Position numbers and translations under genes: made by a program. The notes beneath the pieces were generated by a model. The model had not been told where the DNA came from and did not search any database. It was given only the letters and a program-made list of their open reading frames with translations. Below are positions 30,390-53,313 of a stretch of DNA of 64,000 bases, piece by piece. Source of the DNA: Gammaproteobacteria bacterium. GTDB taxonomy: Bacteria; Pseudomonadota; Gammaproteobacteria; SKWO01. Numbering within the stretch: the first letter of the stretch is position 1; every line of letters begins with the position of its first letter. The stretch lies in assembly GCA_007128895.1 (NCBI GenBank), contig SKWO01000001.1, positions 4,477-68,476 on the forward strand, in the 5' to 3' direction.

Positions 30390-30392
30390 CGC

Positions 30393-31220
30393 TCACTCCT
30401 CTTCCGTCTGCAGGTACTTCTTCTCGGCAACGTGGATGTAGAAGTCAGGATCGGCCTGGTGGTGGGTCTCCTGGAAGTCGGCATAGGTCTTGACCTGCTG
30501 GAAGCCGACTTCGCGCATCAGCTTGGTCGTGTACTCCCGGCGCAGCGGGAACATGTTGAGGTGGAAGACCGACTTGTCGGGAAACTCATAGCGGAAGCGG
30601 GCCAGCCCCTCGTCGACGTACTCCGGCTCGGCCTTGACGTTGTCGCCGCAGTAGTAATAGGTGTGCTTGGACGAGAAACCGTCATCCAGGATGCTGTCGT
30701 AGTTGCGCTGGTCGAGGATCAGGATGCCGTCGTGGTAGAGGGCGGCGTAGAACTCGGCCAGCGCCTTGCGCCGGTCACGCTCGTCGTGCAAGTGGGTAAA
30801 GGAGTTGCCGAGGCAGATAACGGCGTCGAACTTGCCGTGGATGTCCCGGTTGAGCCAGCGCCAGTCGGCCTGGATCGTGCGCAGGATCAGGTCGTGCTTG
30901 CGTCCGTTGGCGAAGGCGCGGGCCAGCATCTCCGGGCTGCCATCGGCGCTGACCACATCGAAACCGGCCTGCATCAGGCGCACCGAATGGAAGCCAGTGC
31001 CGGTGGCCACATCAAGAACCTTGCGTACCCCGCGCGCCTTGAGCTCGCGGATGAAAAAGTCCCCTTCGCTCTCGGCCCGCGCCTTCCAGTCGATCAACTG
31101 GTCCCACTTGCCGACGAAGTCGTGGACATACTCCTCCTGATACTTGCCGGTGTCACGGACTTCGGTGGGGTCCTCGCCGTAGTTCTGCACCGGATTGGCG
31201 CTGATGATCTCGTTGCTCAT
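30393..31220 (-). CDS. gsmt: Glycine/sarcosine N-methyltransferase
   Basis: 275 aa with strong collinear similarity to the Ectothiorhodospira/Halorhodospira GSMT as I recall it (KVRDTGKYQEEYVHDFVGKWDQLIDW...DFFIRELKARG...VLDVATGTGFHSVRLMQAGFDVVSADGSPEML...ILRTIQADWRWLNRDIHGKFDAVICLGNSFTHL...). Confidence 0.85.
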   Translation of the reverse strand: MSNEIISANPVQNYGEDPTEVRDTGKYQEEYVHDFVGKWDQLIDWKARAESEGDFFIRELKARGVRKVLDVATGTGFHSVRLMQAGFDVVSADGSPEMLARAFANGRKHDLILRTIQADWRWLNRDIHGKFDAVICLGNSFTHLHDERDRRKALAEFYAALYHDGILILDQRNYDSILDDGFSSKHTYYYCGDNVKAEPEYVDEGLARFRYEFPDKSVFHLNMFPLRREYTTKLMREVGFQQVKTYADFQETHHQADPDFYIHVAEKKYLQTEEE

Positions 31221-31596
31221 GCAGATCTTACCTCCCTCTTTCTGGTCAGTTGGCGGCAGACGCAGACGAACCTGCGCGAACGATCACGCTATCGTGATGC
31301 CGGTCGGCCCGATTCGAGTCCGCCTGCTGCTCTGTTGTGTGCTGGCTTTCCGGTTCCCGGGGCCGTTGGAGCGGGCTCCGACCCTGTTTCCGGTGCTGTC
31401 GTCGCTGGGCGACTCGTGGGTCATTGGACCCGAACGGCCCATGGCCGCGTTGATGACCCTTGCCGGCCGGTGTGGTCGGCCGCTGGCGGGCGCCTGCCCG
31501 CGGGTCGTTTGGATGCACGCGCTGATCGCGGTGCTTTATGATTCGAGTCGGTTACCTTAACATGCCTTGGCCGACCAATACAGGGAGAGAGGCCGG

Positions 31597-33402
31597 ATGT
31601 GCGGATTTTGTGGTGAGTTGCGTCTTGATGGCGGTGCCGGACGGATCGATCTGGTCCGCCGCATGCTGCCATCCCTGGCGCGGCGGGGACCCGATGGCGA
31701 AGGGGTCTGGCATGATGGGCCGGTCGCCCTAGGTCACCGTCGTCTGGCGATCATTGATCTGTCCGATCATGCTGCCCAGCCGATGGTCGATGCCACCCTC
31801 GGTCTGACGCTGGTCTTTAACGGCACGATCTATAACTACCGTGAGCTGCGTACCGAGTTGGCCGAACTCGGCTACCACTTCTTCTCACGTGGCGACAGTG
31901 AGGTCATCCTGAAGGCGTATCACGCCTGGGGTGAGCACTGCGTCGAACGGCTGCACGGCATGTTTGCCTTCGCCATCTGGGACCGGCACCAGCAGCAACT
32001 CTTCCTGGCACGTGATCGACTTGGCATCAAACCGCTCTACTATGCCCCGGGCAGCGATGGTTTTCGGTTTGCCTCCAACACCATGGCACTGCTCGCCGGC
32101 GGCGGTATCGATACCGATATCGACCCGATCGCCCTGCACCATCAACTGACCCTGCACGCCGTCATCCCTGCGCCACGCACCCTGCTGCAGGGCATCCGCA
32201 AACTGGAACCGGCCACCACCCTGACGCTCACCGCCGACGGCTCGAGCCACCACCGCCGTTACTGGCAACTCGATGCCGTACGCAGTCAAACGGGATGGGA
32301 CGAGGCCGAGTGGACCGAGGCAATCCACGTGTCCTTGCGTGAGGCCGTGCGCAAACGCATGGTCGTAGCGGATGTCCCCGTGGGGGTCCTGCTCTCCGGC
32401 GGGCTCGACTCGAGCCTGCTGGTGGCCCTGCTCGCCGAGGCCGGTGTCGACCAGCTGAACACCTTCTCCATCGGCTTCGAGGATGCTGCCCAGGAAAGCG
32501 GCTCCGAGTTCGAGTTCTCCGATCCTGTCGCCGCCCGTTACGACACGCGCCACCACCGTTTTCTGATTCCCAACGACGAGGTCCTGCAGCGTCTGCCTGA
32601 GGCCGTCGAGCAGATGGCCGAACCGATGGTCGGACAGGATGCGGTGGCTTTCTACCTGCTCGCTGAGCAGGTCTCGCGCGAGGTCAAGGTGGTGCAAAGT
32701 GGCCAGGGAGCTGACGAAGTCTTTGCCGGCTACTTCTGGTATCCGCGCATGGCTGCGGCTGAAGGTGACCTTGTGCGCCGCTTCGCCGACCACTATTTTG
32801 ATCGTGACCATGACGAGCTGCTGGCGACCGTCACCGCACCCTGGCGTGGCGATGACTACACCTCTGGCCTGGTAGCTCAACGTCTCGCGATGCCCGAAGC
32901 CGATACCTTCATCGACCGGGTACTGCACTTCGATGTCACTACGCTGATCGTCGATGATCCGGTCAAGCGGGTCGACAACATGACCATGGCGTGGGGGCTC
33001 GAGGCGCGCGTGCCCTTCCTGGACCACCACTTGGTCGAGCTCGCTGCCGCGATGCCGCCTGAGCTCAAGCTCGCCTCCGGAGGCAAACACGTGCTGCGCT
33101 CCATCGCCCGTGGCCGTCTGCCCGATGCCGTCATTGACCGCCCCAAGGGTTACTTTCCCATGCCGGCCCTGAAGTACGTCCGCGGCCCCTTCCTCGACTT
33201 CATGCGCGACATCCTGCTCTCACAGCCGGCACGTGAACGCGGCCTCTTCGATAGCCAGTATGTCGAGCGTCTCCTTGCCGCGCCAGAAGCGTCGGCCCAC
33301 TACACCCGGCTCCAGGGTAGTAAGCTGTGGCATCTGGCGCTGCTCGAACTCTGGTTACAACGTCATGTCGACGGTCATCTGCTCTGTAGCCGTGCCCCCT
33401 GA
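31597..33402 (+). CDS. asnB: Asparagine synthetase (glutamine-hydrolysing) family amidotransferase
   Basis: 601 aa with an N-terminal Met-Cys (Ntn glutaminase), a PP-loop SGGLDSS, and AsnB C-terminal motifs. It is divergent from the betaine operon. The start was trimmed to the Met at 31597, which has a GGGAGAGAGG ribosome-binding site. Confidence 0.85.
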   Translation: MCGFCGELRLDGGAGRIDLVRRMLPSLARRGPDGEGVWHDGPVALGHRRLAIIDLSDHAAQPMVDATLGLTLVFNGTIYNYRELRTELAELGYHFFSRGDSEVILKAYHAWGEHCVERLHGMFAFAIWDRHQQQLFLARDRLGIKPLYYAPGSDGFRFASNTMALLAGGGIDTDIDPIALHHQLTLHAVIPAPRTLLQGIRKLEPATTLTLTADGSSHHRRYWQLDAVRSQTGWDEAEWTEAIHVSLREAVRKRMVVADVPVGVLLSGGLDSSLLVALLAEAGVDQLNTFSIGFEDAAQESGSEFEFSDPVAARYDTRHHRFLIPNDEVLQRLPEAVEQMAEPMVGQDAVAFYLLAEQVSREVKVVQSGQGADEVFAGYFWYPRMAAAEGDLVRRFADHYFDRDHDELLATVTAPWRGDDYTSGLVAQRLAMPEADTFIDRVLHFDVTTLIVDDPVKRVDNMTMAWGLEARVPFLDHHLVELAAAMPPELKLASGGKHVLRSIARGRLPDAVIDRPKGYFPMPALKYVRGPFLDFMRDILLSQPARERGLFDSQYVERLLAAPEASAHYTRLQGSKLWHLALLELWLQRHVDGHLLCSRAP

Positions 33403-33470
33403 GCGTTGAACCATCTGGCTGGCTGAGCGATACTGGCGACCGGTACCGACTTAACTAGGAGAACCACCGC

Positions 33471-33785
33471 ATGGACGTACTTGAGCGCATTGACCAGATT
33501 GTCAAGGAACACCCCATTGTCCTCTTCATGAAGGGCACCCCTCAGCTTCCCTCATGCGGCTTCTCCAGCCGCGCCGCCCAGGCACTGCAGCAGTGCGGTG
33601 TCGAGTTCGCCTATGTGAATGTACTGGCCGATCCCGAGATCTTCGAGAACCTGCCTCGCTACGCCGACTGGCCGACCTTCCCTCAGCTTTACATCAAGGG
33701 TGAGCTGATCGGCGGCTGTGATATCACCCTGGAGCTCTACCAGCAGGGTGAATTGGAGCGTCTGGCCAAGGAAGCGACCGCCTGA
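33471..33785 (+). CDS. grxD: Grx4-family monothiol glutaredoxin
   Basis: 104 aa with the CGFS active site ([11 protein letters not shown]) and the conserved [18 protein letters not shown]. Confidence 0.9.
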
Positions 33786-33798
33786 CGTTGATGACTCG

Positions 33799-35139
33799 AT
33801 GACACTCTGGAACCGCTGTCTGCAACGGCTGGAAGGGCTGCTCCCTGCTCAGGAGTATGCCACATGGATACTGCCGCTCCAGGCTGTTGAGCAGCCCGGA
33901 TTACTGCAAATATTGGCACCCAACCCGTTTGTTCTTGAGCATGTGCGTGATCAGCACATGGCGTTGATCCAGCAGGCCGCTACCGAGCTGCACGGCACAG
34001 AACCCTTGAAGGTCATCTTCGAGGTTGGTAGCCGTCCCGTTGCTGCAGCATCGCCTTCTTCAGTTTCATCCCCGCCCAATTCAACTGGCAGTAGTCAGGT
34101 GGCCAGCCTGCGCTATGCTCGCAGCAACTCGCTCAATACCAAGCTTACCTTTGATCTCTTTGTCGAAGGCAAGTCGAATCAGATGGCCAAGGCAGCAGCC
34201 AGTCAGGTTGCCACCAATCCCGGCACGGCGTATAACCCGCTTTTTCTCTATGGTGGAGTAGGTCTGGGCAAAACCCACTTGATGCATGCCATCGGCAACG
34301 CAATTCTGGCTCGAAACCCGGGTGGTAAAGTCGTCTTTCTCTCCTCTGAGCGTTTTGTTGCGGACATGGTCAAGGCGCTCCAACACAACGCTATCGATGA
34401 GTTCAAGAACTTCTATCGTTCTGTCGATGCCTTGTTGATCGATGACATTCAGTTCTTTGCCAACAAAGACCGTTCACAGGAGGAGTTCTTCCACACCTTC
34501 AATACCCTGCTAGAAGGTCAGCGTCAGGTGGTGCTTACCTGCGATCGCTACCCCAAGGATGTCAACGGACTGGAGGAGCGGCTCAAGTCACGCTTCGGCT
34601 GGGGGCTGACCGTTGCCATCGAGCCCCCTGAGCTGGAGACACGTGTCGCTATTCTCCTCAGCAAGGCTGAGCAAGGCGGTGTCGATCTGCCGCATGATGT
34701 CGCGTTTTACATTGCCAAACGGATTCGCTCCAACGTACGTGAACTTGAGGGTGCGTTGCGTCGTGTCATCGCCAACTCGCGTTTCAGCGGCCGTCCCGTG
34801 ACGCTCGATTTCGCACGTGAGGCTCTGCGCGATGTCTTCTCCTTCCAGGAAAAGTTGATCACGATCGAGAATATCCAGCGCACGGTGGCCGATTACTATG
34901 GTCTGCGCCTCAACGATCTGCTCTCGCAGCGCCGCTCTCGCTCGATCGCCCGTCCTCGTCAGATTGCCATGTTCCTGGCCAAGGAATTGACCAGCCACAG
35001 TCTGCCTGAGATTGGCGCCAGCTTTGGACGAGACCACACCACCGTGATGCATGCTTGTCGAAAAGTCATTGAACTCAAAGAAGAAGACAACAGAGTTGAG
35101 GAAGATCTCCGCCACCTGATCCGAAAGCTGACGACATGA
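33799..35139 (+). CDS. dnaA: Chromosomal replication initiator protein DnaA
   Basis: 446 aa with domain I, the AAA+ domain ([16 protein letters not shown]) and the domain IV HTH ([31 protein letters not shown]). The start was trimmed to the Met at 33799. Confidence 0.95.
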
Positions 35140-35384
35140 TGTGGACAACTTGTGTGCACGTGGGGTGGATTCAAAATGACGTGAAGTTATGCACAGATGA
35201 TCCACCGGTGATACCCACAGTCTCCCCGCGTCCTTCACCGGTTCTTGCTCGCGGTTTATTGCTTTAAGCGTTTGATGTACAATGAGCTGTCAGGTTTTCC
35301 ACAGGGCTTGGCAGTGCTAATAACAACAACAGTTTTTCTTCTTTATTCATCTATTTTTTAGATAACGGTCAGGGGCAACAAGCG
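35140..35384. other. Candidate oriC: DnaA-box cluster plus AT-rich unwinding element between dnaA and dnaN
   Basis: There are 9-mers within 1 mismatch of TTATCCACA/TGTGGATAA: TGTGGACAA at 35140-48, TTATGCACA at 35187-95, TTTTCCACA at 35295-303, plus weaker ATACCCACA and GATCCACC. A 45-nt A+T-rich tract (TAACAACAACAGTTTTTCTTCTTTATTCATCTATTTTTTAGATAAC) sits at about 35320-35365. There is no intergenic space upstream of dnaA, because grxD ends 13 nt before it. Confidence 0.5.
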
Positions 35385-36485
35385 ATGAACTTTACCATCA
35401 GGCGTGACGAGCTCTTCCGTCCCTTGCAAATGGTCGCCAATGTCGTTGAGCGGCGTCAGACGCTCCCGATACTCTCCAATATTCTGCTGCATCTCGAGAA
35501 CAATCGCTTGACGCTGACCGGGACGGATCTAGAAGTCCAGATGATTGCTTCGGTCCAAGTTGAGGATGGAGTCGATGGTTCGGTTACGGTCTCGGCGCGC
35601 AAGTTCATGGATATCTGTCGTGCGCTACCGGATGAAAGCACGGTCTCCGTGCAACTGACGGATGACCGTTTTCTGGTCCGATCCGGATCGAGTCGTTACA
35701 CGTTGGCTACCTTGCCGTCGTCCGAGTTTCCTTCCCTCGATGAACTGACGGAGCCTTATGAGCTCACCGTGCCCGGCAGCGCCTTACGCTCACTCATTCA
35801 GCGAACCAGCTTCTCCATGGCCCAGCAGGACGTCCGTTACTATCTGAACGGATTGCTCGTTGAGCTGGATAATCGCAATCTTCGGGCGGTCGCTACTGAC
35901 GGGCATCGGTTAGCCTACAGTGAAGCCGTCCTCGAACATGACACGGCAGAGCATCGCCAAGTCATCGTACCGCGCAAAGGCGTCATCGAATTGCAACGGC
36001 TACTGGACGACAGTCAGGAACCGGTCACGCTGCAGATTGGCAACAGCCACTTGCGCGCCTCCTTCGGTTCTCTGGTCTTTACCACCAAACTGGTTGACGG
36101 TCGCTTCCCTGATTATCGACGGGTGATTCCTACCGGTGGAGACAAGGTGCTCGCACTTGATCGCGATTCAGTCCGTCAGGCTTTTCTACGAGCATCAGTA
36201 CTCTCGAATGAAAAGTTTCGTGGCGTACGGATCGATTTGTCCGATCAGGGTATGCGGATCTCTATGCATAATCCTGAGCATGAAGAGGCCGAGGAGCGTG
36301 TCAGTTGTGCCTATACCGCCGAGCCATTCCATATCGGTTTCAATGTCCAGTACATCCTCGATGCACTCGGGGTGATCGAGAGCCCAGAGGTTCACATGAT
36401 CTTTTCGGATCCAAACAGCAGCTGCTTGATCGAACCGGCGGGAGATGTTCATTCGCGCTACGTCGTCATGCCCATGCGACTTTGA
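35385..36485 (+). CDS. dnaN: DNA polymerase III beta sliding clamp
   Basis: 366 aa with the canonical N-terminus (MNFTIRRDELFRPLQMVANVVERRQTLPILSNILL) and three clamp domains. Confidence 0.95.
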   Translation: MNFTIRRDELFRPLQMVANVVERRQTLPILSNILLHLENNRLTLTGTDLEVQMIASVQVEDGVDGSVTVSARKFMDICRALPDESTVSVQLTDDRFLVRSGSSRYTLATLPSSEFPSLDELTEPYELTVPGSALRSLIQRTSFSMAQQDVRYYLNGLLVELDNRNLRAVATDGHRLAYSEAVLEHDTAEHRQVIVPRKGVIELQRLLDDSQEPVTLQIGNSHLRASFGSLVFTTKLVDGRFPDYRRVIPTGGDKVLALDRDSVRQAFLRASVLSNEKFRGVRIDLSDQGMRISMHNPEHEEAEERVSCAYTAEPFHIGFNVQYILDALGVIESPEVHMIFSDPNSSCLIEPAGDVHSRYVVMPMRL

Positions 36486-36494
36486 TCCGAGTGA

Positions 36495-39981
<3,487 letters not shown>

Positions 39982-40815: not shown

Positions 40816-40817
40816 GA

Positions 40818-41210
40818 TTAGTGGAGTATGTGAGGAATGGAGAGTCGGAAAGGGGCGATCGGCGCTGAAAAATCGACGCCGTCACCGGTACGCAACTGAT
40901 ATTCACCGTGCATGCTGCCGACCGGGGTCTCGATGACGGCGCCACTGGTGTATTGAAAGCGCTCACCAGGGCGCAGATACGGCTGAACACCAACCACCCC
41001 GTCACCCCGCACTTCCTGTACATGACCATTGGAATCCGTGATGACCCAGTGGCGAGACAAGAGTTGAGCGGTCACAGGACCGCGGTTTTCGATGGTGATG
41101 GAATAGCTGAAAACATAGCGGCGCTGCTCGGGTGCAGACTGTGCAGCGATGTATTGGGTAACGACGTGGATCGCGATCGGGCGCTCAACGTCTGAATGTA
41201 ATTCGGTCAT
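40818..41210 (-). CDS. apaG: ApaG (DUF525) protein
   Basis: 130 aa with the ApaG pattern (VFSYSITIENRG...QLLSRHWVITDSNGHVQEVRGDGVVGVQP). Trimmed to the Met at 41210; the track ORF extends further 5'. Confidence 0.85.
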   Translation of the reverse strand: MTELHSDVERPIAIHVVTQYIAAQSAPEQRRYVFSYSITIENRGPVTAQLLSRHWVITDSNGHVQEVRGDGVVGVQPYLRPGERFQYTSGAVIETPVGSMHGEYQLRTGDGVDFSAPIAPFRLSIPHILH

Positions 41211-41298
41211 CTCCACCTCCCTGTATGAGACATCCAACAGCTCTATTGTAGCGAAGACCGGAAAAATTGATCCGACCTGGCAATAGCGAAGCTCAGGA

Positions 41299-42369: not shown

Positions 42370-43055
42370 AGCTCACCTGCCGGCGCAATGTGGGCAGCAG
42401 GAAAGCGTGTATTGATAGCCGAAGGGCCCAGCAATTGAGCGACGACCGGAGCCTTCTCAGCCCCTGTGACCAAAAAGTAGACCGCCCGACCGGCATTGAT
42501 GAGAGGGTAGGTAAAGGTGATGCGTGCACGTGCAAGCTGAGGGCTAGCAACAGCACTGACCAGCCGTTCGCGCTCATGTAGGACAGCGGTGTCAGGAAAG
42601 AGGGAAGCCGTGTGGCCATCCATACCCAAACCGAGCAAGATGATGTCGAAGCGGGGTATATGCTGCGAAGCAGGCAGATGCGCGAGCAGGCGTCGTTGAT
42701 AATCGACAGCTGCCGCTTCGGCGCCGAGCTCAGTGCGCACTCGATGGAGCGGCGGGGCGTTGCTGCCCATCCGATCGATCAGGCTGGACTGAACCATACG
42801 GTAATTGCTTTCGGCATGATCAGCAGGCACACAACGCTCATCACCTAGCCAGAGCTGTATGGCTGGCCACTGGAAGCGGACGGACCACTCGGTACTGGCT
42901 AGAAGGCGATACAGTTGCTCAGGGGTGCTGCCACCGGAGAGGGCGATGTGACAGACACCGCGTTGCTGGACCGCATCAGCCGCACGAGCTACCAGTACAT
43001 CGGCGAGGGCGGCGACGGTTCCGGCAGGATCGGTCTGGATGACATGCGCAGCCAT
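42324..43055 (-). CDS. pgl: 6-phosphogluconolactonase
   Basis: 243 aa of the DevB/Pgl family (CHIALSGGSTPEQLYRLLAS...ILLGLGMDGHTASLFP). Confidence 0.75.
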   Translation of the reverse strand: MAAHVIQTDPAGTVAALADVLVARAADAVQQRGVCHIALSGGSTPEQLYRLLASTEWSVRFQWPAIQLWLGDERCVPADHAESNYRMVQSSLIDRMGSNAPPLHRVRTELGAEAAAVDYQRRLLAHLPASQHIPRFDIILLGLGMDGHTASLFPDTAVLHERERLVSAVASPQLARARITFTYPLINAGRAVYFLVTGAEKAPVVAQLLGPSAINTRFPAAHIAPAGELCWYLDQPAASELPS

Positions 43056-43056
43056 G

Positions 43057-43353
43057 CTAGTCAGTTTGAGAATAGGTATCGGGACGCTTGTCTCGATGGC
43101 GGGTCAGGTGGTCAAAGGCGTGACGAACAGCCTGTTCAATGGCCTGATCCATTTCATCACGCTCCTGTACCGTCAGGTAAAAACTGGTGTCGACGTGGTG
43201 ACGGACATAGCGGGATGGGAGCTGGTTGAGTGCCAGACAGGCGGCGTCTTCCAAAAGCTCGTGATCGGGCATCTGCTGAAATCGATCGTGCGCATGACGG
43301 CGAATTGCACTGAAGACCAGCGGTTCATAGTAATTGGAGATCTCGTAGGCCAT
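43057..43353 (-). CDS. ComFB-family small protein (cysteine-less variant)
   Basis: 98 aa whose central AACLALNQLPSRYV resembles the ComFB 'ALNrLPPkYV' signature, but it lacks the Cys cluster of Bacillus ComFB. Confidence 0.45.
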   Translation of the reverse strand: MAYEISNYYEPLVFSAIRRHAHDRFQQMPDHELLEDAACLALNQLPSRYVRHHVDTSFYLTVQERDEMDQAIEQAVRHAFDHLTRHRDKRPDTYSQTD

Positions 43354-43362
43354 GATCGTGTC

Positions 43363-43875
43363 CTATGGGCGCAGGCGCCAAAGCGGTCTGTCGGATGTAT
43401 CGATCAGCCCCTCACGCAGTAACCAGTCACGTGCGTCAGCGGCGTCGTGGAGAAACCACTCGCGGGCGGACCCCAGTCTGAAAGTGTAACCCCAGCAATC
43501 CATATCTGCCAGCATGCGATCACGTCCCATGTCTGGGATGTACTCGGAGAGGAGTATCTGCAGGTAGCACACGGCGTCTTCCTCGGCGTAGTCACCACCC
43601 GAATCGGTATCGAGCGCATGGCGGCGACCACTATCCATACAGATGACGTGACAGAGCTCATGCAACATCGAGTGAACCGGCGTGTCAGCGCGAACAAAGA
43701 GCGCCAAACCGATGATACCGGCCTCGGCATCGCCCCAATAGCTGCCGGGAATAGCGGCCTCATCAGCCACCCACTGTAGCGTGAGACCATAACGTGTGAC
43801 CAGCTCGGCCGTAGAGCTGACCTCAAGGTCGCGACAGCGCAGGACGGGAAGGGTGGCACCAAAAGGAGCAGTCAT
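43363..43875 (-). CDS. Hypothetical HExxH protein (putative zinc metallopeptidase-like; SprT/Wss1-like or unassigned)
   Basis: 170 aa. A single HELCH motif (SMLHELCHVICMDSG) is followed by acidic EED. Its start overlaps the rsmA stop by 4 nt (ATGA). No other recognisable family signatures. Confidence 0.35.
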   Translation of the reverse strand: MTAPFGATLPVLRCRDLEVSSTAELVTRYGLTLQWVADEAAIPGSYWGDAEAGIIGLALFVRADTPVHSMLHELCHVICMDSGRRHALDTDSGGDYAEEDAVCYLQILLSEYIPDMGRDRMLADMDCWGYTFRLGSAREWFLHDAADARDWLLREGLIDTSDRPLWRLRP

Positions 43876-44648
43876 GGGAGTTGTCGCGTCAGTTGAACAA
43901 AGTCGTCTAGCGAGAGACGCTCAACCCGCGCCAGCGGATCGACGCCGGCCGCACGAATCGCCGCTTCATCGAGCAGGTTGCGCAAACTGTTGCGCAGCGT
44001 TTTTCTGCGCTGGGAAAAGGCGGCGGTCACAACGCGCGCCAGGGCTTCTGACGTGACGGCATCCGAGGGCGGGTGAGCATGCGGAATCAGGCGTACCACG
44101 GCAGAATCGACCTTGGGAGCCGGGCGGAAGGCGCCCGGCCCGACGTCAAGCAGGTAGGTCGCAGAGACGTACCAGGCTGCCATCACTGAGAGTCGGCTCC
44201 AGCCTCGCTGACCAGGGCGCGCCACAAGGCGGTCGACCACCTCGCGCTGGAGCATGAAGTGCATGTCATCAATGACATCGTGCTGGGCAAAGAGGTGAAA
44301 GAGCAGCGGTGTCGAGATGTTGTAAGGTAGGTTTCCAACGACACGGAGGCGCCCACCACCGGCCAGCCGGGAGAAATCGAAACGCAGTGCGTCGGCCTGA
44401 TGGACGACCAGCTCACCTTGACCAGCCAGCGCAACAGGGAGATGGGCGGCCAGATCACGATCCAGCTCGATCACATCGAGCCGACCCGACGCCGCCAGTA
44501 GTGGGGCAGTCAGCGCGCCGAGCCCAGGTCCAATCTCGACCAGATGGTCGCCGGGCTGTGGTGCAATGGCGCGGACGATGCGCTGGATGACAGCCGGATC
44601 ATGCAGAAAATTCTGCCCGAAACGCTTACGTGCTCGATGCTCGATCAT
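43872..44648 (-). CDS. rsmA: 16S rRNA (adenine1518/1519-N6)-dimethyltransferase
   Basis: 258 aa beginning KRFGQNFLHD, with VEIGPGLGALT and the NLPYNIS motif. Confidence 0.9.
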   Translation of the reverse strand: MIEHRARKRFGQNFLHDPAVIQRIVRAIAPQPGDHLVEIGPGLGALTAPLLAASGRLDVIELDRDLAAHLPVALAGQGELVVHQADALRFDFSRLAGGGRLRVVGNLPYNISTPLLFHLFAQHDVIDDMHFMLQREVVDRLVARPGQRGWSRLSVMAAWYVSATYLLDVGPGAFRPAPKVDSAVVRLIPHAHPPSDAVTSEALARVVTAAFSQRRKTLRNSLRNLLDEAAIRAAGVDPLARVERLSLDDFVQLTRQLP

Positions 44649-45625
44649 GGCAGCAACACCAGAGCTTGGTCGACGGCGTATGCCAGGCTGGTGATTGAGG
44701 CACGGCCCGTGGCCGCCAGTGGCAGTGCGGTACCGTGGTCGACTGAAGTACGCAGGAAGGGAAGACCCAGCGTGATATTGGCAGCTTGGCCGAAGCAGCG
44801 GTGCTTGAGTACAGGAAGACCCTGGTCATGGTACATGGCTAGCACGGCGTCGTGCGCCTCGAGGCTGGCAGGGACAAAAGCGGTGTCGGCCGGTACTGGG
44901 CCGGTGAGGTGCAATCCTTCATGACGCAACTGTTCAAGGACCGGTGTGATGATCGTCAGCTCCTCGTGACCGAGGTGACCTGCCTCGCCGGCATGAGGGT
45001 TGAGGCCACAGACTAGGATGCGCGGTGCCATGAGAGCAAAGTGGCGACGCAGGGCCGAGTCGAGGATACGCAGGGTCGTTGTGAGGCGTTCGACGGTGAT
45101 CTGGCTGGCCACGGCACTCAGCGGGAGATGTGTCGTGACCAGCGCGACACGCAAAGTATGGCAGGCTAGCATCATGACCACCGATGCGACGTTACTGCGG
45201 GCGGCCAGATACTCAGTGTGGCCACTGAAAGGGATGCCGGCGTCGTTGATGACGCCCTTATGCAGAGGGCCGGTCACCAGGCCGCAAAAATCCCCACGGA
45301 GACAGCCATCCACGGCACGGTCGAGCGTGTTGAGGAGGTAGCCAGCGTTGGCTGGATCGGGTTGGCCCGGGGTGACCGGGTGCGGACAGGAAACGGGCTG
45401 TACCCAAAGCTGGCCGGGTCGGAAAGCGACCGTGGCCTCTGGGCCTGGCCATTCGCGCAGATTGACCGTCAGTCCAAGCTGGTTGGCGCGTGCTTCTAGC
45501 AGGCAAGGATCGGCAATGGCGACCAACGGTCGTGGCGAGTGGCTCGCCGTCAGTTGAAGCAGCAAATCCGGTCCGATACCGGCGGGTTCACCCGGGGTGA
45601 TGGCAAGAGGACGGGTGGCACTCAC
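44645..45625 (-). CDS. pdxA: 4-hydroxythreonine-4-phosphate dehydrogenase
   Basis: 326-aa PdxA family (ITPGEPAGIGPDL...GLNPHAGE...). It overlaps rsmA by 4 nt. Confidence 0.9.
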   Translation of the reverse strand: MSATRPLAITPGEPAGIGPDLLLQLTASHSPRPLVAIADPCLLEARANQLGLTVNLREWPGPEATVAFRPGQLWVQPVSCPHPVTPGQPDPANAGYLLNTLDRAVDGCLRGDFCGLVTGPLHKGVINDAGIPFSGHTEYLAARSNVASVVMMLACHTLRVALVTTHLPLSAVASQITVERLTTTLRILDSALRRHFALMAPRILVCGLNPHAGEAGHLGHEELTIITPVLEQLRHEGLHLTGPVPADTAFVPASLEAHDAVLAMYHDQGLPVLKHRCFGQAANITLGLPFLRTSVDHGTALPLAATGRASITSLAYAVDQALVLLP

Positions 45626-45631
45626 CGGCCA

Positions 45632-46948
45632 TCAAGACCCTTCGAGACGAAATTCGACAAAGGCTTCGTCACGCAGTCGGCGCAGCCACTGTTCCAGGGT
45701 CTCCTCCATCTTGCGCTGACGAACGGCACGGCGTGCCTCGTTGCGCAGAAAGGCCGTGCTGTCGTCGCGCGTACGACGGTCGATGACCTGCACGATGTGC
45801 CAACCGAAACCGGTGGCAAAGGGCTCACTGATTTCACCGGGTTGGAGCTGGTTCATCTGTTCTTCGAACTGGGGTACCAGCTCACCCGGGTTGACCCAGC
45901 CAAGGTCACCCCCCTCGGCGGCTGAACCGCGGTCATCGGAGTGGACGCGGGCCAGTGCGGCGAAGTCATCACCCAGAAGGATGCGCTGACGCAGATCACT
46001 CAGGCGCCGCGCGATCTCCGACTCATCGGTCAGTGACCCCTCACGCAACAAGATGTGACGGGCGCGGGTCTGGGTCACCCGATAGGTGGGTTGGTCTGGG
46101 CGACGAACTTCAGCCAGATGGATGATATGGATACCGCCATCGGTCGTGATCAGCTCACTGACTTCACCCGCCTGCATGGTGCGAACCCGGTCAGCAAAGA
46201 GGGTTGGCAGTTGGCCAGCCTCGCGCCAGCCGAGATCACCGCCTTGCACAGCCTGAGGCCCGTCCGAGTGCTCCCGTGCGAGCTGTGCGAAATCGGCGCC
46301 CTCACGCAGCGCTGCCAAGAGTCCGGCAGCACGTTCACGCACCTGACGGCGCTCGGCGGCAGAGGCCCCTTCCGGGATGGCGATGACGATGTGCTCGACC
46401 CGGTATTCACCGGCTTCATCCAGCACGCCGGAGAGCCCTTCGATGTAGTTGGCGATCTCGCGTTCAGTGACCTGGATCTGGCTCTCGACCTCGCTCTGAC
46501 GCAGCCGGTTCATCAGGATTTCGTCACGGATCTGCTCACGGAAGCGGCCGAAATCGATCCCGTCACGCTCCAGGACCGAACGAAACTCGACCAGGGTGAG
46601 GTTGTTCTGCTGCGCCAGGTCGGCCAGCACCTCGTTGAGCAGTGCGTCATCAACGCGCAGGCCGATCTGGGCCGCCCGTTGCAGCTGAATGCGTTCCAGC
46701 GCCATGCGTTCGAGGATTTGGCGGCGGACCAGATCGGCCGGCGGCAGCGAGCCGCCCTGCTGGCGCAGCTGGTCGACCACTTCACGGACCCGCTCGTCGA
46801 GTTCGCTCTGCATGATGATGTCGTCATTGACGATCGCGACGATGCGATCGACATCGACAATACGCTCGGCGATGGCCGGGGTAGCAGCACCGAGCAGCCA
46901 CAGGGCAGCCAGCAGCGAGGGTAGCAGGAGTCGTTTCAGTATCGGCAT
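45632..46948 (-). CDS. surA: Periplasmic chaperone / peptidyl-prolyl isomerase SurA
   Basis: 438 aa with a signal peptide, the SurA N-domain (IVAIVNDDIIMQSELDERV) and two parvulin-like domains. Confidence 0.85.
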   Translation of the reverse strand: MPILKRLLLPSLLAALWLLGAATPAIAERIVDVDRIVAIVNDDIIMQSELDERVREVVDQLRQQGGSLPPADLVRRQILERMALERIQLQRAAQIGLRVDDALLNEVLADLAQQNNLTLVEFRSVLERDGIDFGRFREQIRDEILMNRLRQSEVESQIQVTEREIANYIEGLSGVLDEAGEYRVEHIVIAIPEGASAAERRQVRERAAGLLAALREGADFAQLAREHSDGPQAVQGGDLGWREAGQLPTLFADRVRTMQAGEVSELITTDGGIHIIHLAEVRRPDQPTYRVTQTRARHILLREGSLTDESEIARRLSDLRQRILLGDDFAALARVHSDDRGSAAEGGDLGWVNPGELVPQFEEQMNQLQPGEISEPFATGFGWHIVQVIDRRTRDDSTAFLRNEARRAVRQRKMEETLEQWLRRLRDEAFVEFRLEGS

Positions 46949-46950
46949 GG

Positions 46951-49272
46951 CTAGCGTCCAACCAGATCAAGCAGTTCGTCTATGTTACTACGTTGCCCGA
47001 TCGATGACAGTCCCTTGAGCTCAAAGACCAGCATGACGGCGTTGTCGTAGCGCGTCGAGTCACGACCGGGGAGGTAGCGCCGCAGGGCTGCCTGTACGCC
47101 CCAGCAGCAGCTGTCATAACGTACACCGGCGAAGCTGTCGAGCGTCCGGTTGTCGTGGAAGGAGTAGTTCCAGCGGGCAAAGAGAGCCGTCTGATGGCTG
47201 ACCGGCCAGGTGAAGCCGATGTCGCCCTGCTCGCGCGCGTCACGGGTGTAGCGCCAGGTGGCGTAGATACGGCGCATGCCGTCCGCACGGTAGCGCAGGC
47301 GCATCGCCGCTTCATTGAAACGGCTCTCGTCCGGGTCATAGCGGCCGAAGAGGCTGCCGTCGACGGTCTCGCTGAACTGAGCGTCGGTCTGGCCCAGGAC
47401 GTCCGACCAGCGACGCCGATCACGAACCACGCCATCCAGCCGAACGCGACGGTCGGAGAAGTGACGGATCTGGCCAACCGTCGCAGAGAGGCGCTGAACA
47501 CCGGTCTCCGGTTCCAGCAGGCGTGTCGTGACAGCGAGGGTTACCTGGTTGGCGTCACCGACCCGGTCGCGGCCAATGAAACGGTTCTCGCTGAAGAGGG
47601 CACCGGTGCCGAAGCTGCGCTCGCCGGTATCGAAGTTGGGCAGGTCATGCTGAGCACGATACGGGGCGTGCAGGTAGAAGAGGCGCGGCTCGAGGGTGTG
47701 CAGGTAATCGCGACCGGCCAATCGGGTATCGCGCTCGAAGAAGAGACCGCTGTCGAGGCTGGCCACTGGAACGGTACGGTTGGGGCTTGAGCCGAGACCG
47801 GCTGCCTGGTTGTTCAGCTGGTAGCGGCTGTGGTAGACCGTCAGGCGTGGCACGATGAAGCCGGAGACGCCGCGCACCGGCCACGAGATCCCGGCGCGCA
47901 GGTCGAGACGATCGCCATCGATGCGGCCACCCTCGCTGTGCTCGAAACGGGTGAACTCGCTGTCTAGGTGGTAGTTGAGTTCGCGATTACGCTCCGGGTG
48001 GCGATTGCGGACCCGAAGCTGGGGTAGCCGCCGGTACGGCTCCTCGGCGTTGTGCACGGTCTGATGGCGCTGCACCAGACCGGTGACCGACCAATCGCTC
48101 AGACCGCTCCAGGCCAGGGTGGCCTGCTGAGGCAGGTGGCGGCTGCTACCGCGCTGGCCTCCGCCGAAATCGTCGAGGTGGTCGTCGTCCCGTACCCGGT
48201 TATAGAGCAGGCTGTAGCGCAGATCGTCGCCCAAGTGGCCGCGGTGATCGACCATGCCGCGCTCGCGACGGCTGCCATGCTGGCGGTCGTGGGGCAGTAG
48301 GTCGTACTCGACGATGCCGTGGCTGCTCGGGTTGAGATAGCGAAACTCGTTGCGCAGCATCAACCCGCGTCGCCCATAAAGGTGGGGGGTGATGGTGGCA
48401 TCACGGTGCGGGGCGATGTTCCAGTAATAGGGGGTGGCCAGCTCGAAGCCGTGGCGATCGGAGCTGCCCCAGCTCGGGGCGAGAAAACCGGAGAGCCGCT
48501 CGCTGCCCAGTGGGAAACGCAGATAGGGGGTCCAGGCCACCGGCGTATCCTTGATGCGCAGGGTCGCATTGCGCGCCACGCCTTGGCGGCGTTCGTGGTC
48601 GAGATCGATGCGCGAGGCGTGGATCGACCAGGTGCGGCTATGCGGCTGGCAGGTCGAGTAACCGGCCTGCTCCAGCGATTGGCGGTCGGCGTCGTGGAAG
48701 ACGACACGCTCGGCGCGACCGAAGGCGTGGGCGTCGCGCAGATGCCAGTTGGCCGGGCTGATCTCACCACGGTTTTCCGGCAAGACCAGTACGGCGCGTT
48801 GGCCATCGATATGGAGGGGTCCCGACTGGTAGTGGACTGTGCCGGTAGCGATGGCCGTTTCGCTGCGTCGGTCGTAGTCGATCCGGTCGGCCGCGACATA
48901 GCGGCCATCGCGATGCATCCGAACGTTGCCTTCGAGCCGCACCGTCGCTTCATCGGCCAGCGCCGTCTCACTCTCACCGGTCAGCTCACCCCGTGCGATC
49001 GGCAGCGGCGGGTCAGGCTCAATGAAGTAGAAGCTATAGGCTGGACAGGCGGCCCAGGCCCCCTCCGGGGCCACCTCGACCCAGCGGCCGGGCTGGAGAT
49101 CGGCCGCGGCCGAGAGCGGTGAGAGCAGCCCGGCACAGCACAGTGCGAGCAGACGAGGCCGAAAGGGCGGGCGCTTGCCAGGTAGCAGACACGGCTGCTC
49201 GGAGTCTCTGGGGTGAAAACAGCCGCGGGCAGAGGAGGACATGGCGTTATCGCTCGAGCTGGCTGACGTCAC
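46951..49272 (-). CDS. lptD: LPS-assembly outer membrane protein LptD
   Basis: About 773 aa with a long signal peptide, a beta-jellyroll N-domain and a large C-terminal barrel ending in aromatic-rich strands. The 5' end may be the Met at 49242 rather than 49272, which overlaps ilvD. Confidence 0.85.
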
Positions 49273-51094: not shown

Positions 51095-51138
51095 CGTTAT
51101 GGACTCGTTAGTGTTGTTGGATGGGGTTCAGGGGCGCA

Positions 51139-53243: not shown

Positions 53244-53252
53244 GGCGTCTCT

Positions 53253-53291: not shown

Positions 53292-53313
53292 GCTTAGGAT
53301 TGTATTGGGGTGC

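What the first reader, a model, noticed from the sequence alone, without database searches (positions are those of the whole stretch)
31200..47000. Broad GC and codon-usage trough centred on the origin genes, with gyrB/recF at about 45-55% GC against about 72-77% in the flanks
Sampled 60-nt blocks give 77% GC in hrpA but only 43-57% in gyrB. GC3 in gyrB is visibly mixed, whereas flanking genes end almost every codon in G or C. The depression is graded, not a sharp island: SDMT about 63%, GSMT and asnB about 60%, grxD about 58%, dnaA about 56%, recF and gyrB about 50%, apaH, glk and pgl 56-58%, rsmA and pdxA about 60%, surA and lptD 62-64%, ilvD about 65%. These are universally conserved core genes, so simple horizontal transfer of an accessory island does not fit. 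Possible explanations are xenologous replacement of the whole origin-proximal block, a locally distinct mutational or repair regime, or an assembly or chimera artefact. Any of these is unusual.
Basis: seen in the sequence. Interest (0 to 1): 0.6.

Follow-up and report, generated by a model that had tools for sequence, protein, structure and literature searches.

The report
Graded GC trough at chromosome origin
About 18 kb of ordinary core genes around this bacterium's replication origin and centromere sites drops smoothly from 88% to about 53% G+C at silent codon positions and back; this is real and recurs in some relatives, looks like a position-dependent evolutionary regime rather than imported DNA or an assembly error, and its cause is unknown.

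Summary
GC falls from about 0.70 to 0.49-0.53, and GC3 from 0.86-0.90 to 0.53 at recF. Recovery is gene by gene on both sides, across about 31.3-49.3 kb. A graded model beats a sharp-edged block by 85 AIC units. The minimum lies at 37-38.5 kb, on two parS centromere sites inside recF and about 2 kb from a DnaA-box cluster in the dnaA-dnaN spacer.

It is not a one-off assembly artefact. Two other ENA assemblies give the same sequence (99.96-99.99% identity) across both shoulders. A simple island is unlikely: the trough has no single pair of sharp edges, no mobile genes, and it grades through the conserved lptD-surA-pdxA-rsmA-apaG-apaH cluster.

Against 50 gammaproteobacterial loci, the four origin genes sit 0.25-0.33 GC3 below expectation (z -3.6 to -6.2). 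The usual dip is only 2.5 GC points. Deep versions recur in some relatives, including the finished isolate genome of Sulfurivermis fontis, and are absent in others. In Enterobacterales, where these genes are away from oriC and lack parS, there is no dip.

Best reading: in-place weakening of the genome's GC-ward pressure near the origin/centromere module. The mechanism is unresolved. A ParB-footprint reading is not excluded.

The parts
31297..49242 (.). Full extent of the synonymous-site GC trough (GC3 below about 0.80), from orf87/asnB-like to the end of lptD
   Evidence: Per-gene and 100-codon GC3. Best single-box limits are 31.25-47.0 kb. The triangular fit has feet at about 30.3 and 51.4 kb. 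Segmentation breaks fall at 31.6, 33.8, 42.9, 46.4 and 49.5 kb.
33799..43055 (.). Trough floor (GC3 0.53-0.63; GC 0.49-0.60), from dnaA to pgl
   Evidence: Segment levels are 0.59-0.64.
35140..35384 (.). Candidate oriC: dnaA-dnaN spacer with a cluster of DnaA-box-like 9-mers followed by an A+T-rich tract (GC 0.46)
   Evidence: Three of the five matches to TTATCCACA (at most 1 mismatch) in the 64-kb window lie here, at 35140, 35187 and 35295. The sequence was read directly. Function is inferred, not shown.
36910..36925 (.). parS site 1 inside recF (TGTTCCACGTGGAACC, 1 mismatch to the palindromic consensus)
   Evidence: 0.16 matches expected in the window. The same pair at the same position in recF is present in most gammaproteobacterial loci examined. 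It is described as parS1/parS2 of P. aeruginosa (PMC5521831).
37525..37540 (.). parS site 2 inside recF (TGTTTCACGTGAAACA, perfect palindrome)
31597..33402 (+). N-acetylglutaminylglutamine amidotransferase (asnB-like), left shoulder, GC3 0.74
   Evidence: NCBIfam TIGR03104, 975 bits. GC3.
33471..33785 (+). Monothiol glutaredoxin (grxD), GC3 0.75
   Evidence: Pfam Glutaredoxin on the identical ENA gene call. GC3.
33799..35139 (+). dnaA, GC3 0.63
   Evidence: TIGR00362, 579 bits. Gene start taken from the ENA call. GC3.
35385..36485 (+). dnaN, GC3 0.62
   Evidence: TIGR00663. GC3.
36495..37574 (+). recF, trough minimum, GC3 0.53. Four-fold sites are A .27, C .23, G .23, T .27
   Evidence: TIGR00611. 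Composition.
37582..39981 (+). gyrB, GC3 0.58
   Evidence: NF011501, 1318 bits. GC3.
39982..43055 (-). apaH, apaG, glk, pgl (GC3 0.59-0.62), non-replication genes on the trough floor
43057..46948 (-). comFB-like, hyp170, rsmA, pdxA, surA: right slope, GC3 0.60 rising to 0.72. surA shows an intragenic rise (p=0.049)
46951..49242 (-). lptD, upper right shoulder, GC3 0.79
49247..51094 (-). ilvD, first gene back at flank composition (GC3 0.88)
30393..31220 (-). GSMT, last gene at flank GC3 (0.88) on the left. Its low total GC comes from GC2 0.34

Best explanation
The trough is a native part of the chromosome that acquired its composition in place.

Elsewhere in this genome some force holds silent sites at about 88% G+C and favours C and T endings on the coding strand. 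That force could be GC-biased gene conversion linked to recombination, selection for GC, or both, acting against AT-biased mutation. It gets progressively weaker, or AT-ward mutation gets stronger, as one approaches the origin/centromere module. That module is the candidate oriC in the dnaA-dnaN spacer plus the two ParB-binding parS sites in recF. At the centre (recF) four-fold sites are essentially unbiased (27/23/23/27%).

What is shown: the trough is real, graded and position-dependent; it affects synonymous sites and first codon positions; and it recurs at this locus in other lineages.

What is inferred: that the cause is a shifted mutation-fixation balance tied to the initiation/partition region. 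Which of the two sides, less GC-ward fixation or more AT-ward mutation, is responsible was not resolved.
For: 1. Graded and position-dependent.
- GC3 rises monotonically with distance on both sides (rho 0.96 and 0.94).
- Graded models beat a sharp block by 85 AIC units.
- The gradient runs through the conserved lptD-surA-pdxA-rsmA-...-apaG-apaH cluster and through glk/pgl, genes with no link to replication.

2. Not only codon choice.
- GC1 of all four origin genes is below the cross-genome expectation (z -1.4 to -2.8), while GC2 is normal.
- The two spacers inside the trough have GC 0.46-0.48, against 0.53-0.72 for spacers outside it.

3. Native signature.
- The shoulder genes keep the genome-wide coding-strand C>G and T>A bias at four-fold sites. 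That bias fades stepwise (dnaA, dnaN, recF; apaG, apaH, gyrB) to parity at recF/gyrB.
- The dinucleotide distance from trough to flanks (50-68) lies within the range seen between the same parts of other genomes (20-77).

4. Centre.
- The profile likelihood puts the minimum at 37.0-38.5 kb (triangular) or 37.5-39.7 kb (Gaussian), on or beside the parS pair at 36.9-37.5 kb.

5. Recurrence at the same locus.
- L006 (Chromatiaceae MAG, 1-Mb contig): GC3 .70 to .40 to .63, with a significant intragenic gradient in yidC (p=1.5e-5).
- L085 (GCA_026992075.1).94 to .67 to .94.
- Sulfurivermis fontis AP018724.1, a complete isolate genome: dnaN .59 and recF .53 against about .85 in the flanks.
- Core and shoulder deficits correlate across loci (r=0.57).

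6. Context, not gene identity.
- In 7 Enterobacterales loci (no parS in recF; oriC about 40 kb from dnaA in E. coli, from established knowledge) the four genes are not GC-poor (+0.009). In 44 parS-bearing loci they are (-0.032). Mann-Whitney p=0.0008.

7. Independent assemblies agree.

8. A donor with GC3 near 0.55 would be too divergent at silent sites from a GC3 0.88 recipient for homologous replacement. This is an inference.
Against: - Most origin-linked, parS-bearing loci show only a small dip confined to the four genes. These include high-GC ones (L088, L090, L046, L003). There is no difference in the shoulders between parS-bearing and parS-less loci. Origin or parS context alone is therefore not sufficient, and an unknown lineage-specific factor is needed.
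- The centre is not consistently on one landmark. In the window the dnaA-dnaN spacer is rejected as the centre (delta logL about -20). In L006 the centre lies at dnaA-3'/dnaN and parS is disfavoured (delta logL -3 to -7).
- A staircase of 5-6 flat levels fits as well as a smooth slope: better by AIC, worse by BIC. Most genes in the window show no internal slope. Nested imports would also produce that pattern.
- recF and gyrB lack the genome's pyrimidine-ending signature. A foreign core would also explain this.
- Published genome-scale estimates put recombination highest near the origin in most species (PMC11879095). That does not favour a recombination-poor origin, although the scale of that study is much coarser.
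- No polarised substitution or polymorphism data were available, so no regime has been observed directly.
Confidence: 0.6

Rival explanations
1. Xenologous replacement. The origin block, or a nested series of blocks centred on gyrB/recF, was imported from lower-GC bacteria. Older and larger imports have since partly ameliorated, which gives a staircase.
For: - The four origin genes have the GC3 expected of a 52-56% GC genome.
- A 5-6 level staircase with roughly symmetric levels (.75/.79.64/.66.57) fits better than a smooth V by AIC.
- Most genes are internally flat.
- recF and gyrB lack the host's coding-strand C/T preference.
- GyrB is the most divergent member among its top 120 hits, while IlvD is average.
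Against: - There is no close donor: the best GyrB hit is 73% identical and the similarity profile is star-like, as for IlvD at 85%.
- The long GyrB branch disappears when the comparison set is the 80 genome loci (rank 40 of 81).
- The shoulders keep the host signature and the dinucleotide signature is not foreign.
- The slope runs through a conserved operon.
- The same kind of trough occurs at the same locus in at least four other lineages with different neighbouring genes.
- Homologous replacement between genomes differing by 0.35 in GC3 is mechanistically implausible (inference).
- Repeated nested imports centred on one spot in several lineages is unparsimonious.
Confidence: 0.15
2. Lagging relic. 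The lineage's genome GC rose recently. The origin region, evolving more slowly, still shows the ancestral lower GC.
For: - The nearest relatives by GyrB are mostly 50-67% GC.
- Substitution rates are reported to be lower near origins (my own knowledge, not checked here).
Against: - The trough core is not poor in variation. Seven of the 10 differences between two assemblies of this population lie in 33.4-39.6 kb (scan P=0.03).
- GyrB shows no short branch.
- L006 has a trough at 38% GC in a 55% GC genome, and S. fontis has one in a genome whose locus flanks are about 0.65 GC, so several lineages would all need recent GC rises.
- A graded rate reduction on a 10-kb scale would still be needed.
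Confidence: 0.1
3. Gene-specific effect. Replication genes, and weakly expressed genes near them, simply use less GC-rich codons. This has been loosely stated for genes near oriC.
For: - A small dip of about 2.5-4 GC points over dnaA-gyrB is general in Gammaproteobacteria.
- recF and dnaN are usually the lowest.
- The literature mentions lower-GC replication genes and genes near oriC (PMC8495750).
Against: - The regression already allows for the general dip, and the window still lies at z -3.6 to -6.2.
- Twelve non-replication genes share the trough in order of distance.
- Low-expression genes in the flanks (hrpA, glnE) have GC3 .86-.89.
- The four genes are not GC-poor in Enterobacterales.
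Confidence: 0.1
4. Assembly artefact. The metagenomic contig is a chimera or a blended consensus of different organisms.
For: - The source is a metagenome-assembled contig of 71,001 bp.
- Conserved genes such as gyrB and dnaA are classic places for mis-joins.
Against: - Two other assemblies from other samples reproduce 27.6-55.9 kb and 39.7-55.9 kb at 99.96-99.99% identity with identical gene order.
- There are no Ns, no frameshifts and no internal stops in 28 genes.
- The composition is graded rather than stepped at a single junction.
- A finished isolate genome (S. fontis) and a 1-Mb contig (L006) show the same phenomenon.
Confidence: 0.05

Closest known systems
A+T enrichment of silent sites around the replication terminus (chromosome-scale GC3 structuring; Daubin and Perriere 2003, recalled from memory, not checked here)
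   Same: Regional, graded change of GC3 tied to a replication landmark. It affects ordinary core genes and is attributed to local mutation or recombination regimes rather than to gene transfer.
   Different: That effect lies at the terminus and spans tens to hundreds of kb with modest amplitude. Here the trough is at the origin/centromere, about 18 kb wide, and very deep (GC3 0.88 to 0.53).
ParB-parS partition complex around the recF parS1/parS2 sites of Pseudomonas aeruginosa, and ParB spreading zones in general
   Same: - Same parS pair at the same place in recF (PMC5521831).
- ParB occupies roughly 10 kb of flanking DNA, asymmetrically (PMC5815017).
- In P. aeruginosa excess ParB affects expression of genes PA0003-PA0015.
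- The trough has a similar size, peaked shape and asymmetry, and its minimum is at the parS pair.
   Different: No compositional imprint of ParB zones has been described in what I could search. Most genomes with the same parS pair have no broad trough. ParB itself is not encoded in the window and its binding was not measured.
Horizontally acquired genomic island
   Same: A multi-kb region with GC and codon usage unlike the rest of the genome.
   Different: There is no single pair of sharp boundaries, no integrase, tRNA or flanking repeats, and no accessory genes. The content is universally conserved core genes in conserved order. A true sharp-edged low-GC block with a defence gene at window 1-1650 provides a contrast.
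Recombination-associated GC3 variation (GC-biased gene conversion in bacteria; Lassalle et al. 2015, PMC4450053; r/m-GC correlation, PMC11879095)
   Same: It offers a force that raises GC3 against AT-biased mutation and varies along the chromosome. A local recombination deficit would give a local trough that also affects non-synonymous positions.
   Different: Published landscapes report recombination highest near the origin at genome scale. No recombination estimate exists for this lineage.
A+T-rich DNA unwinding element of oriC, and the loosely stated 'lower-GC genes near oriC' (PMC8495750)
   Same: Low GC at the origin. The dnaA-dnaN spacer here has such a tract.
   Different: Unwinding elements are tens of bp long. 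The general dip over dnaA-gyrB is about 2.5 GC points. Here the depression is 17-20 points and extends over 19 genes.

Membership tests
Horizontally acquired genomic island | Abrupt compositional boundaries (one pair of breakpoints) | tested here: not met
   A single box is worse than graded shapes by 85 AIC units. At least 5 levels are needed in the segmentation.
Horizontally acquired genomic island | Mobility or accessory gene content; tRNA or repeat-flanked insertion site | tested here: not met
   All 19 genes are housekeeping or conserved. There are no tRNA genes in the window and no long flanking direct repeats.
Horizontally acquired genomic island | Foreign oligonucleotide or codon signature | tested here: inconclusive
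   Dinucleotide distance to the flanks is 50-68, within the normal intragenomic range of 20-77. The shoulders keep the host C>G and T>A signature, but recF and gyrB do not.
Horizontally acquired genomic island | Discordant phylogeny relative to the flanks | tested here: inconclusive
   Best hits of GyrB (73%) and IlvD (85%) are both star-like, to basal sulfur-oxidising Gammaproteobacteria. No relatives were close enough for trees. The branch-length tests conflict.
Bacterial oriC | Cluster of DnaA boxes next to an A+T-rich unwinding tract, adjacent to dnaA/dnaN | tested here: met
   Three of the 5 near-consensus boxes in the window fall within 160 bp of the dnaA-dnaN spacer, followed by an A+T-rich tract. 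The window-wide box count is not above chance (27 of 100 shuffles reach it), so only the clustering is informative.
Bacterial oriC | Switch of replication-associated strand skew | tested here: inconclusive
   Raw GC and AT skew change sign at about 36-37 kb. At four-fold sites, however, skew follows the coding strand almost everywhere. A 64-kb window cannot show a chromosome-wide switch.
Bacterial oriC | Autonomous replication or initiation mapped experimentally | not testable with these tools
   Needs marker-frequency analysis or a minichromosome assay.
Chromosomal parS centromere (ParABS) | 16-bp palindrome matching TGTTNCACGTGAAACA | tested here: met
   Sites at 36910 (1 mismatch) and 37525 (perfect). 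0.16 matches at up to 3 mismatches are expected in the window.
Chromosomal parS centromere (ParABS) | Origin-proximal and positionally conserved among relatives | tested here: met
   The same pair, about 615 bp apart in recF, is present in most of the 80 loci and in L085-L087. It is known as parS1/parS2 in P. aeruginosa.
Chromosomal parS centromere (ParABS) | Cognate ParB/ParA encoded, and ParB binding and spreading | not testable with these tools
   parAB is not in the 64-kb window. Binding needs ChIP-seq.
Terminus-type A+T enrichment | Located around the replication terminus | tested here: not met
   The trough contains dnaA, dnaN, DnaA boxes and parS, which are origin markers.
gBGC / recombination-linked GC heterogeneity | GC3 covaries with local recombination rate; AT-to-GC alleles segregate at higher frequency where GC is high | not testable with these tools
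   Only 12 differences among three near-identical assemblies are available. There are no polarised polymorphisms.
gBGC / recombination-linked GC heterogeneity | Effect on all site classes, not only synonymous sites | tested here: met
   GC1 of the four genes is below expectation (z -1.4 to -2.8). Intergenic GC is .46-.48 in the trough. This is equally expected from a shift in mutation bias.

The most novel reading that the evidence does not exclude
The trough is an evolutionary imprint of the ParB-parS partition complex. DNA that is chronically covered by ParB clamps sliding out from the two recF parS sites would be shielded from recombination-linked GC-biased repair, or exposed to more AT-ward damage. 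ParB occupancy is peaked, asymmetric and about 10-20 kb wide. Silent-site GC would then decay toward mutational equilibrium in proportion to occupancy, and base composition would report the time-averaged footprint of a bacterial centromere. The evidence does not exclude this. The minimum is on the parS pair and the size and shape match published ParB zones. In Grimontia (L025) a second parS cluster sits in its own 3-kb low-GC block. The idea is weakened by two results: most parS-bearing genomes lack a broad trough, and the L006 minimum lies nearer dnaN than parS.
Probability: 0.15. Interest if true: 0.85.

Novelty: new variant of a known kind. Interest (0 to 1): 0.58.

Why it matters
Why bacterial genomes hold the GC content they do is an open question, with mutation bias, selection and biased gene conversion as the candidates. 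Most tests compare different genomes.

Here one chromosome contains a smooth series, over 18 kb of ordinary and functionally unrelated core genes, from strongly GC-driven sites (GC3 0.88) to essentially unbiased sites (four-fold sites 27/23/23/27% in recF). The series is anchored on a defined landmark, oriC plus parS. Closely related lineages either have the trough or lack it, and one that has it is a cultured isolate with a finished genome (Sulfurivermis fontis).

That is a natural dose series. The competing forces can be separated in it with polymorphism spectra, mutation accumulation and ParB or recombination mapping.

There are also practical consequences:
- Such troughs will mislead composition-based detectors of horizontal transfer and metagenome binning or chimera checks.
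- gyrB, dnaA and recF are widely used phylogenetic markers, and compositional drift confined to them could bias trees.

Tried and rejected
1. Source and close relatives.
- The exact-protein look-up of GyrB failed.
- The best non-self hits are 73% for GyrB and 85% for IlvD.
- The contig of the best long IlvD relative (L081) is not syntenic.
- As a result no gene trees and no dN/dS could be made.

2. GC skew as an origin marker. It was rejected, because four-fold-site skew follows the coding strand almost everywhere.

3. Accelerated protein evolution in the trough.
- GyrB has 9.2% private changes at conserved columns against a median of 3.9% among its top hits, while IlvD is ordinary.
- With the 80 genome loci as the comparison set, the window ranks 40/81 for GyrB, 34/73 for RecF, 21/74 for DnaN and 11/67 for DnaA.
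- I treat this as inconclusive. The first result probably reflects the composition of the hit set.

4. Direction of GyrB private changes. There are 22 AT-ward and 14 GC-ward, which is within the null range.

5. ParB or origin context as a general cause of broad troughs. This is not supported. Loci with and without parS do not differ in the shoulders or overall (p=0.43). Only the narrower four-gene dip differs from Enterobacterales, and that contrast rests on one clade.

6. Smooth slope versus staircase. This is undecided, because AIC and BIC disagree.

7. Head-on transcription as the cause. It was rejected. The deepest genes (dnaN, recF, gyrB) are co-directional with the presumed fork, and the head-on genes ilvD, argF and argD are at full GC3.

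8. SNP clustering between assemblies. It is only suggestive (scan P=0.03; other tests P about 0.09). It could equally be a recombination tract.

9. Look-up of the left-end defence gene, intended to extend the contig. It failed.

10. Literature searches. They found no description of a broad origin- or parS-centred GC trough, only a passing remark on lower-GC genes near oriC. The library is incomplete, so absence is not proven.

Full report

Yes. In 1-kb windows GC is 0.65-0.75 over most of the window. It falls to 0.52-0.53 between 35 and 40 kb and climbs back to 0.67-0.70 by 49-50 kb. In 500-bp windows the lowest values are 0.488, at 35.0-35.5 and 38.0-38.5 kb.

- SDMT, GSMT, an asnB-like N-acetylglutaminylglutamine amidotransferase, dnaA, dnaN, recF, gyrB, apaH and apaG.
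- glk, pgl, rsmA, pdxA, surA, lptD, ilvD and argF.
- hrpA, glnE, ilvE, metK, ahcY and others in the flanks.

With gene coordinates checked against an independent gene call, GC3 changes as follows:
- Left side, from flank to centre: GSMT .88, orf87 .76, asnB-like .74, grxD .75, dnaA .63, dnaN .62, recF .53.
- Right side, from centre to flank: gyrB .58, apaH .59, apaG .62, glk .59, pgl .59, comFB-like .60, hyp170 .65, rsmA .66, pdxA .68, surA .72, lptD .79, ilvD .88.
- Flank genes lie at .84-.91.

GC3 correlates with distance from the centre at rho 0.96 on the left and 0.94 on the right (p=4e-6).

Two details need correcting. SDMT and GSMT are low in total GC only because of their amino-acid composition, since their GC3 is at flank level. 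And the trough ends at about 49.3 kb, not 47 kb.

**2. Shape.**

Treating each third codon position as a binomial trial, any trough model gains about 600 log-likelihood units over a constant. Triangular and Gaussian troughs beat a single sharp-edged block by 85 AIC units for GC3 and by 61 for four-fold sites. The fitted values are base .87-.89, depth .33-.38, about 7 kb to the left and about 14 kb to the right.

The profile likelihood puts the minimum at 37.0-38.5 kb (triangular) or 37.5-39.7 kb (Gaussian).

An optimal piecewise-constant segmentation gives breaks at 31.6, 33.8, 42.9, 46.4 and 49.5 kb. Its levels are .87/.75/.59/.66/.79/.88. It is better than the smooth shapes by AIC and worse by BIC. 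Inside individual genes only surA shows a slope (p=0.049), and the others are flat.

The trough is therefore certainly not one block. Whether it is a ramp or a staircase cannot be decided from this one sequence.

**3. What lies at the centre.**

The dnaA-dnaN spacer (35140-35384) holds three of the five near-consensus DnaA boxes in the whole window. They are followed by an A+T-rich tract. There is no spacer upstream of dnaA, because grxD ends 13 bp before it. This spacer is the candidate oriC.

Inside recF there are two parS sites: 36910-36925 (one mismatch) and 37525-37540 (a perfect TGTTTCACGTGAAACA). Only 0.16 such matches are expected in the window. The same pair, about 615 bp apart and ending about 80 bp before gyrB, is present in most of the 80 gammaproteobacterial loci I fetched. 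It is absent in Enterobacterales and Pasteurellales. In Pseudomonas aeruginosa it corresponds to parS1/parS2 'within the recF gene' (PMC5521831).

The fitted minimum coincides with the parS pair. The dnaA-dnaN spacer as centre is worse by about 20 log-likelihood units. Gene-level effects could shift the apparent minimum, so this is not proof.

GC skew does not help here. At four-fold sites nearly every gene in the window has C>G and T>A on its coding strand, whatever its position.

**4. Artefact?**

The source is an NCBI metagenome-assembled contig of 71,001 bp. The GyrB cluster held a second, non-identical member from ENA.

Fetching it gave a 59,133-bp contig from assembly ERZ27301262. Another look-up gave a 16,569-bp contig from ERZ27301261. 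The first matches window 27582-55947 and the second 39743-55890, at 99.96-99.99% identity without gaps and with identical gene order.

Both shoulders are thus reproduced in other assemblies. All 28 genes checked are intact and there are no Ns. A chimera is very unlikely.

**5. How unusual is it?**

In 50 full-length loci centred on gyrB, the dnaA-gyrB segment is on average 2.5-4 GC points below its flanks. The dip does not extend beyond the four genes. In the same measure the window is at -10.6 points, or about -17 against its far flanks.

I regressed each gene's GC3 on flank GC across the 50 genomes. The window's dnaA, dnaN, recF and gyrB are then 0.26, 0.26, 0.30 and 0.33 below expectation for a 70% GC genome (z -4.1, -3.6, -4.2, -6.2). 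They look like genes of a 52-56% GC genome. GC1 is also low in all four (z -1.4 to -2.8) and GC2 is normal. The two spacers inside the trough have GC .46-.48. The depression is therefore not confined to codon choice.

**6. Recurrence elsewhere.**

- L006, a Chromatiaceae MAG on a 1-Mb contig, has a V-shaped trough. GC goes .59 to .38 to .56 and GC3 goes .70 to .40 to .63. There is a significant gradient inside yidC (p=1.5e-5) and inside dnaA (p=0.036).
- L085 (GCA_026992075.1, 66% GC flanks) is among the closest GyrB relatives. Its GC3 goes .94.88.81, dnaA .78, dnaN .67, gyrB .75.76.82, glyS .88, glyQ .94.
- Sulfurivermis fontis (AP018724.1, a complete genome of an isolate) has dnaA .70, dnaN .59, recF .53 and gyrB .70, against .84-.88 further out.
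- Thiohalomonas denitrificans (L086) and L087 have shallower versions.
- L088 (Thiohalobacter) and L090, both 66-68% GC, have almost none.
- Across loci, deeper cores go with lower shoulders (r=0.57).
- In seven Enterobacterales loci the four genes are not GC-poor (+0.009 ± 0.018), against -0.032 ± 0.032 in 44 parS-bearing loci (p=0.0008). In that order recF has no parS. In E. coli dnaA lies about 40 kb from oriC (established knowledge). This contrast rests on one clade, so it is suggestive only.

Taken together, the depression depends on chromosomal context rather than on what the genes are. Its size is a variable, lineage-specific trait, and this window is the most extreme case I found.

**7. 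Import or in-place evolution?**

The following argue against import:
- GyrB and IlvD have the same kind of similarity profile. There is nothing closer than 73% and 85% respectively, and the hits are spread over basal sulfur-oxidising Gammaproteobacteria.
- The dinucleotide signature of the trough differs from the flanks by 50-68. That lies within the 20-77 seen between the equivalent parts of other genomes and well below the median of 116 to other genomes.
- The shoulder genes keep the host's C>G and T>A bias at four-fold sites. That bias fades stepwise into recF, where it reaches exact parity (27/23/23/27%), and into gyrB.
- The slope runs through the conserved lptD-surA-pdxA-rsmA...apaG-apaH cluster.
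- L087 shares the gyrB/glk-pgl adjacency, which hints that this neighbourhood is old.
- A donor with GC3 near .55 would be saturated at silent sites relative to a .88 recipient, so homologous replacement is hard to picture (inference).

The following favour import:
- The staircase fit.
- The loss of the host signature in recF and gyrB.
- An apparently long GyrB branch among its top hits. That result did not hold with a different comparison set.

I rate replacement at 0.15.

**8. Mechanism.**

Published work supports two background points. Mutation in bacteria is generally AT-biased and is opposed by a GC-favouring force (PMC2936529, abstract seen). GC3 correlates positively with recombination (PMC4450053; PMC11879095).

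If recF's four-fold sites (GC .46, with equal complementary bases) approximate the mutational equilibrium, the flanks need a population-scaled GC-ward bias of roughly 2. That bias would fall to about 0.5 at apaH-pgl and to 0 at recF. This is my own arithmetic and assumes the standard mutation-fixation balance.

Either the GC-ward force is locally weakened or the mutation spectrum is locally more AT-ward. I could not separate the two. The only population data are 10 differences between two assemblies. Seven of them fall in 33.4-39.6 kb (scan P=0.03; other tests P about 0.09). That could mean a higher local mutation input, or a recombination tract.

The most interesting specific idea is a ParB footprint. 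The supporting points are these:
- The minimum is on the parS pair.
- ParB complexes cover about 10 kb, asymmetrically (PMC5815017).
- In P. aeruginosa the complex around the recF sites influences genes PA0003-PA0015.

Against it:
- Most genomes with the same parS pair lack a broad trough.
- In L006 the minimum lies nearer dnaN.
- Published genome-scale estimates put recombination highest near origins.

I give the ParB reading 0.15. I give the general statement, in-place and position-dependent relaxation of GC pressure around the origin/centromere module, 0.6.

**9. Comparison with what is known, and novelty.**

The trough is not a genomic island: the boundary and gene-content tests are not met. 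It is not the terminus A+T enrichment either, since the landmark is wrong.

It goes far beyond the tens-of-bp unwinding element and beyond the small general dip over dnaA-gyrB. [quoted passage not shown]

Five literature searches found no description of a broad graded trough centred on oriC or parS. The library is incomplete.

I class it as a new variant of a known kind, namely regional GC3 structuring tied to replication landmarks. Interest is moderate to high. The phenomenon is real and reproducible, it is present in a culturable relative, and it gives a within-chromosome gradient on which the competing explanations of bacterial GC content could be tested. Its cause is not established here.

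Noticed in passing
window 1-1650: A second low-GC stretch (GC about 0.60, GC3 .64-.70) has a sharp edge at about 1650 against GC3 .93 in ubiH next door. It encodes a 416-aa protein with a weak match to the MAD3 anti-phage AAA ATPase (98.6 bits, below the cutoff of 420). It looks like an ordinary accessory or defence island at the window edge, and is a useful contrast to the graded trough.
   Followed up: partly
window 6696-6879 (+), 9023-9244 (+), 55390-55466 (+): Rfam matches above gathering score: 6S RNA (85 bits), a cobalamin riboswitch upstream of the 669-aa ORF at 9131-11140 (107.6 bits), and an SAH riboswitch directly upstream of ahcY (65 bits).
   Followed up: no
window 54178-54186: The only perfect DnaA box (TTATCCACA) in the window lies in the 330-bp, GC 0.53 spacer between sodB and metK, about 19 kb from dnaA. 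It could be a regulatory DnaA site, or chance.
   Followed up: no
window 29550-33402: Osmoprotectant genes sit right beside the origin genes. Glycine betaine synthesis (SDMT, GSMT) is on one strand, and an N-acetylglutaminylglutamine amidotransferase diverges from it. This suggests a halophilic or halotolerant organism. rpmH-rnpA-yidC-mnmE, the usual upstream neighbours of dnaA in the relatives, are absent here.
   Followed up: partly
window 39982-53895: About 14 kb of genes immediately right of gyrB (apaH to sodB) are all on the minus strand. That is head-on to a fork leaving the candidate origin. Relatives show the same habit with different genes (plsC, gmhB, glyS, glyQ in L085-L090).
   Followed up: partly
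window 41299-43875: The conserved lptD-surA-pdxA-rsmA-apaG-apaH cluster is interrupted between rsmA and apaG. The inserted genes are glk, pgl, a 98-aa ComFB-domain protein and a 170-aa protein with no family match. L087 also has glk-pgl directly after gyrB (41% and 38% identity).
   Followed up: partly
window 33388-39629 versus ENA contig k141_473740 (L082): Seven of the ten differences between two assemblies of this population cluster in the trough core. Three of them are amino-acid changes in gyrB (D to E, Q to E, H to R). ilvD is identical at the protein level.
   Followed up: partly
L085 8381-10000: In the GCA_026992075.1 relative no recF gene is called between dnaN and gyrB, although both parS sites are present (9043, 9655). 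recF may be disrupted there, or the gene call may have failed.
   Followed up: no
L025 12500-15500: Grimontia sedimenti has three extra parS sites (13425, 13554, 15003) downstream of gyrB. They lie inside a 3-kb block of GC .40-.47, against about .51 around it.
   Followed up: partly
L027, L055, L056 at about 12.3-16 kb: Three loci that lack the recF parS pair (Plasticicumulans, Photorhabdus, Pasteurella) have sharp, deep low-GC blocks (depth .21-.26) starting right after gyrB. They look like islands inserted at a common spot.
   Followed up: no
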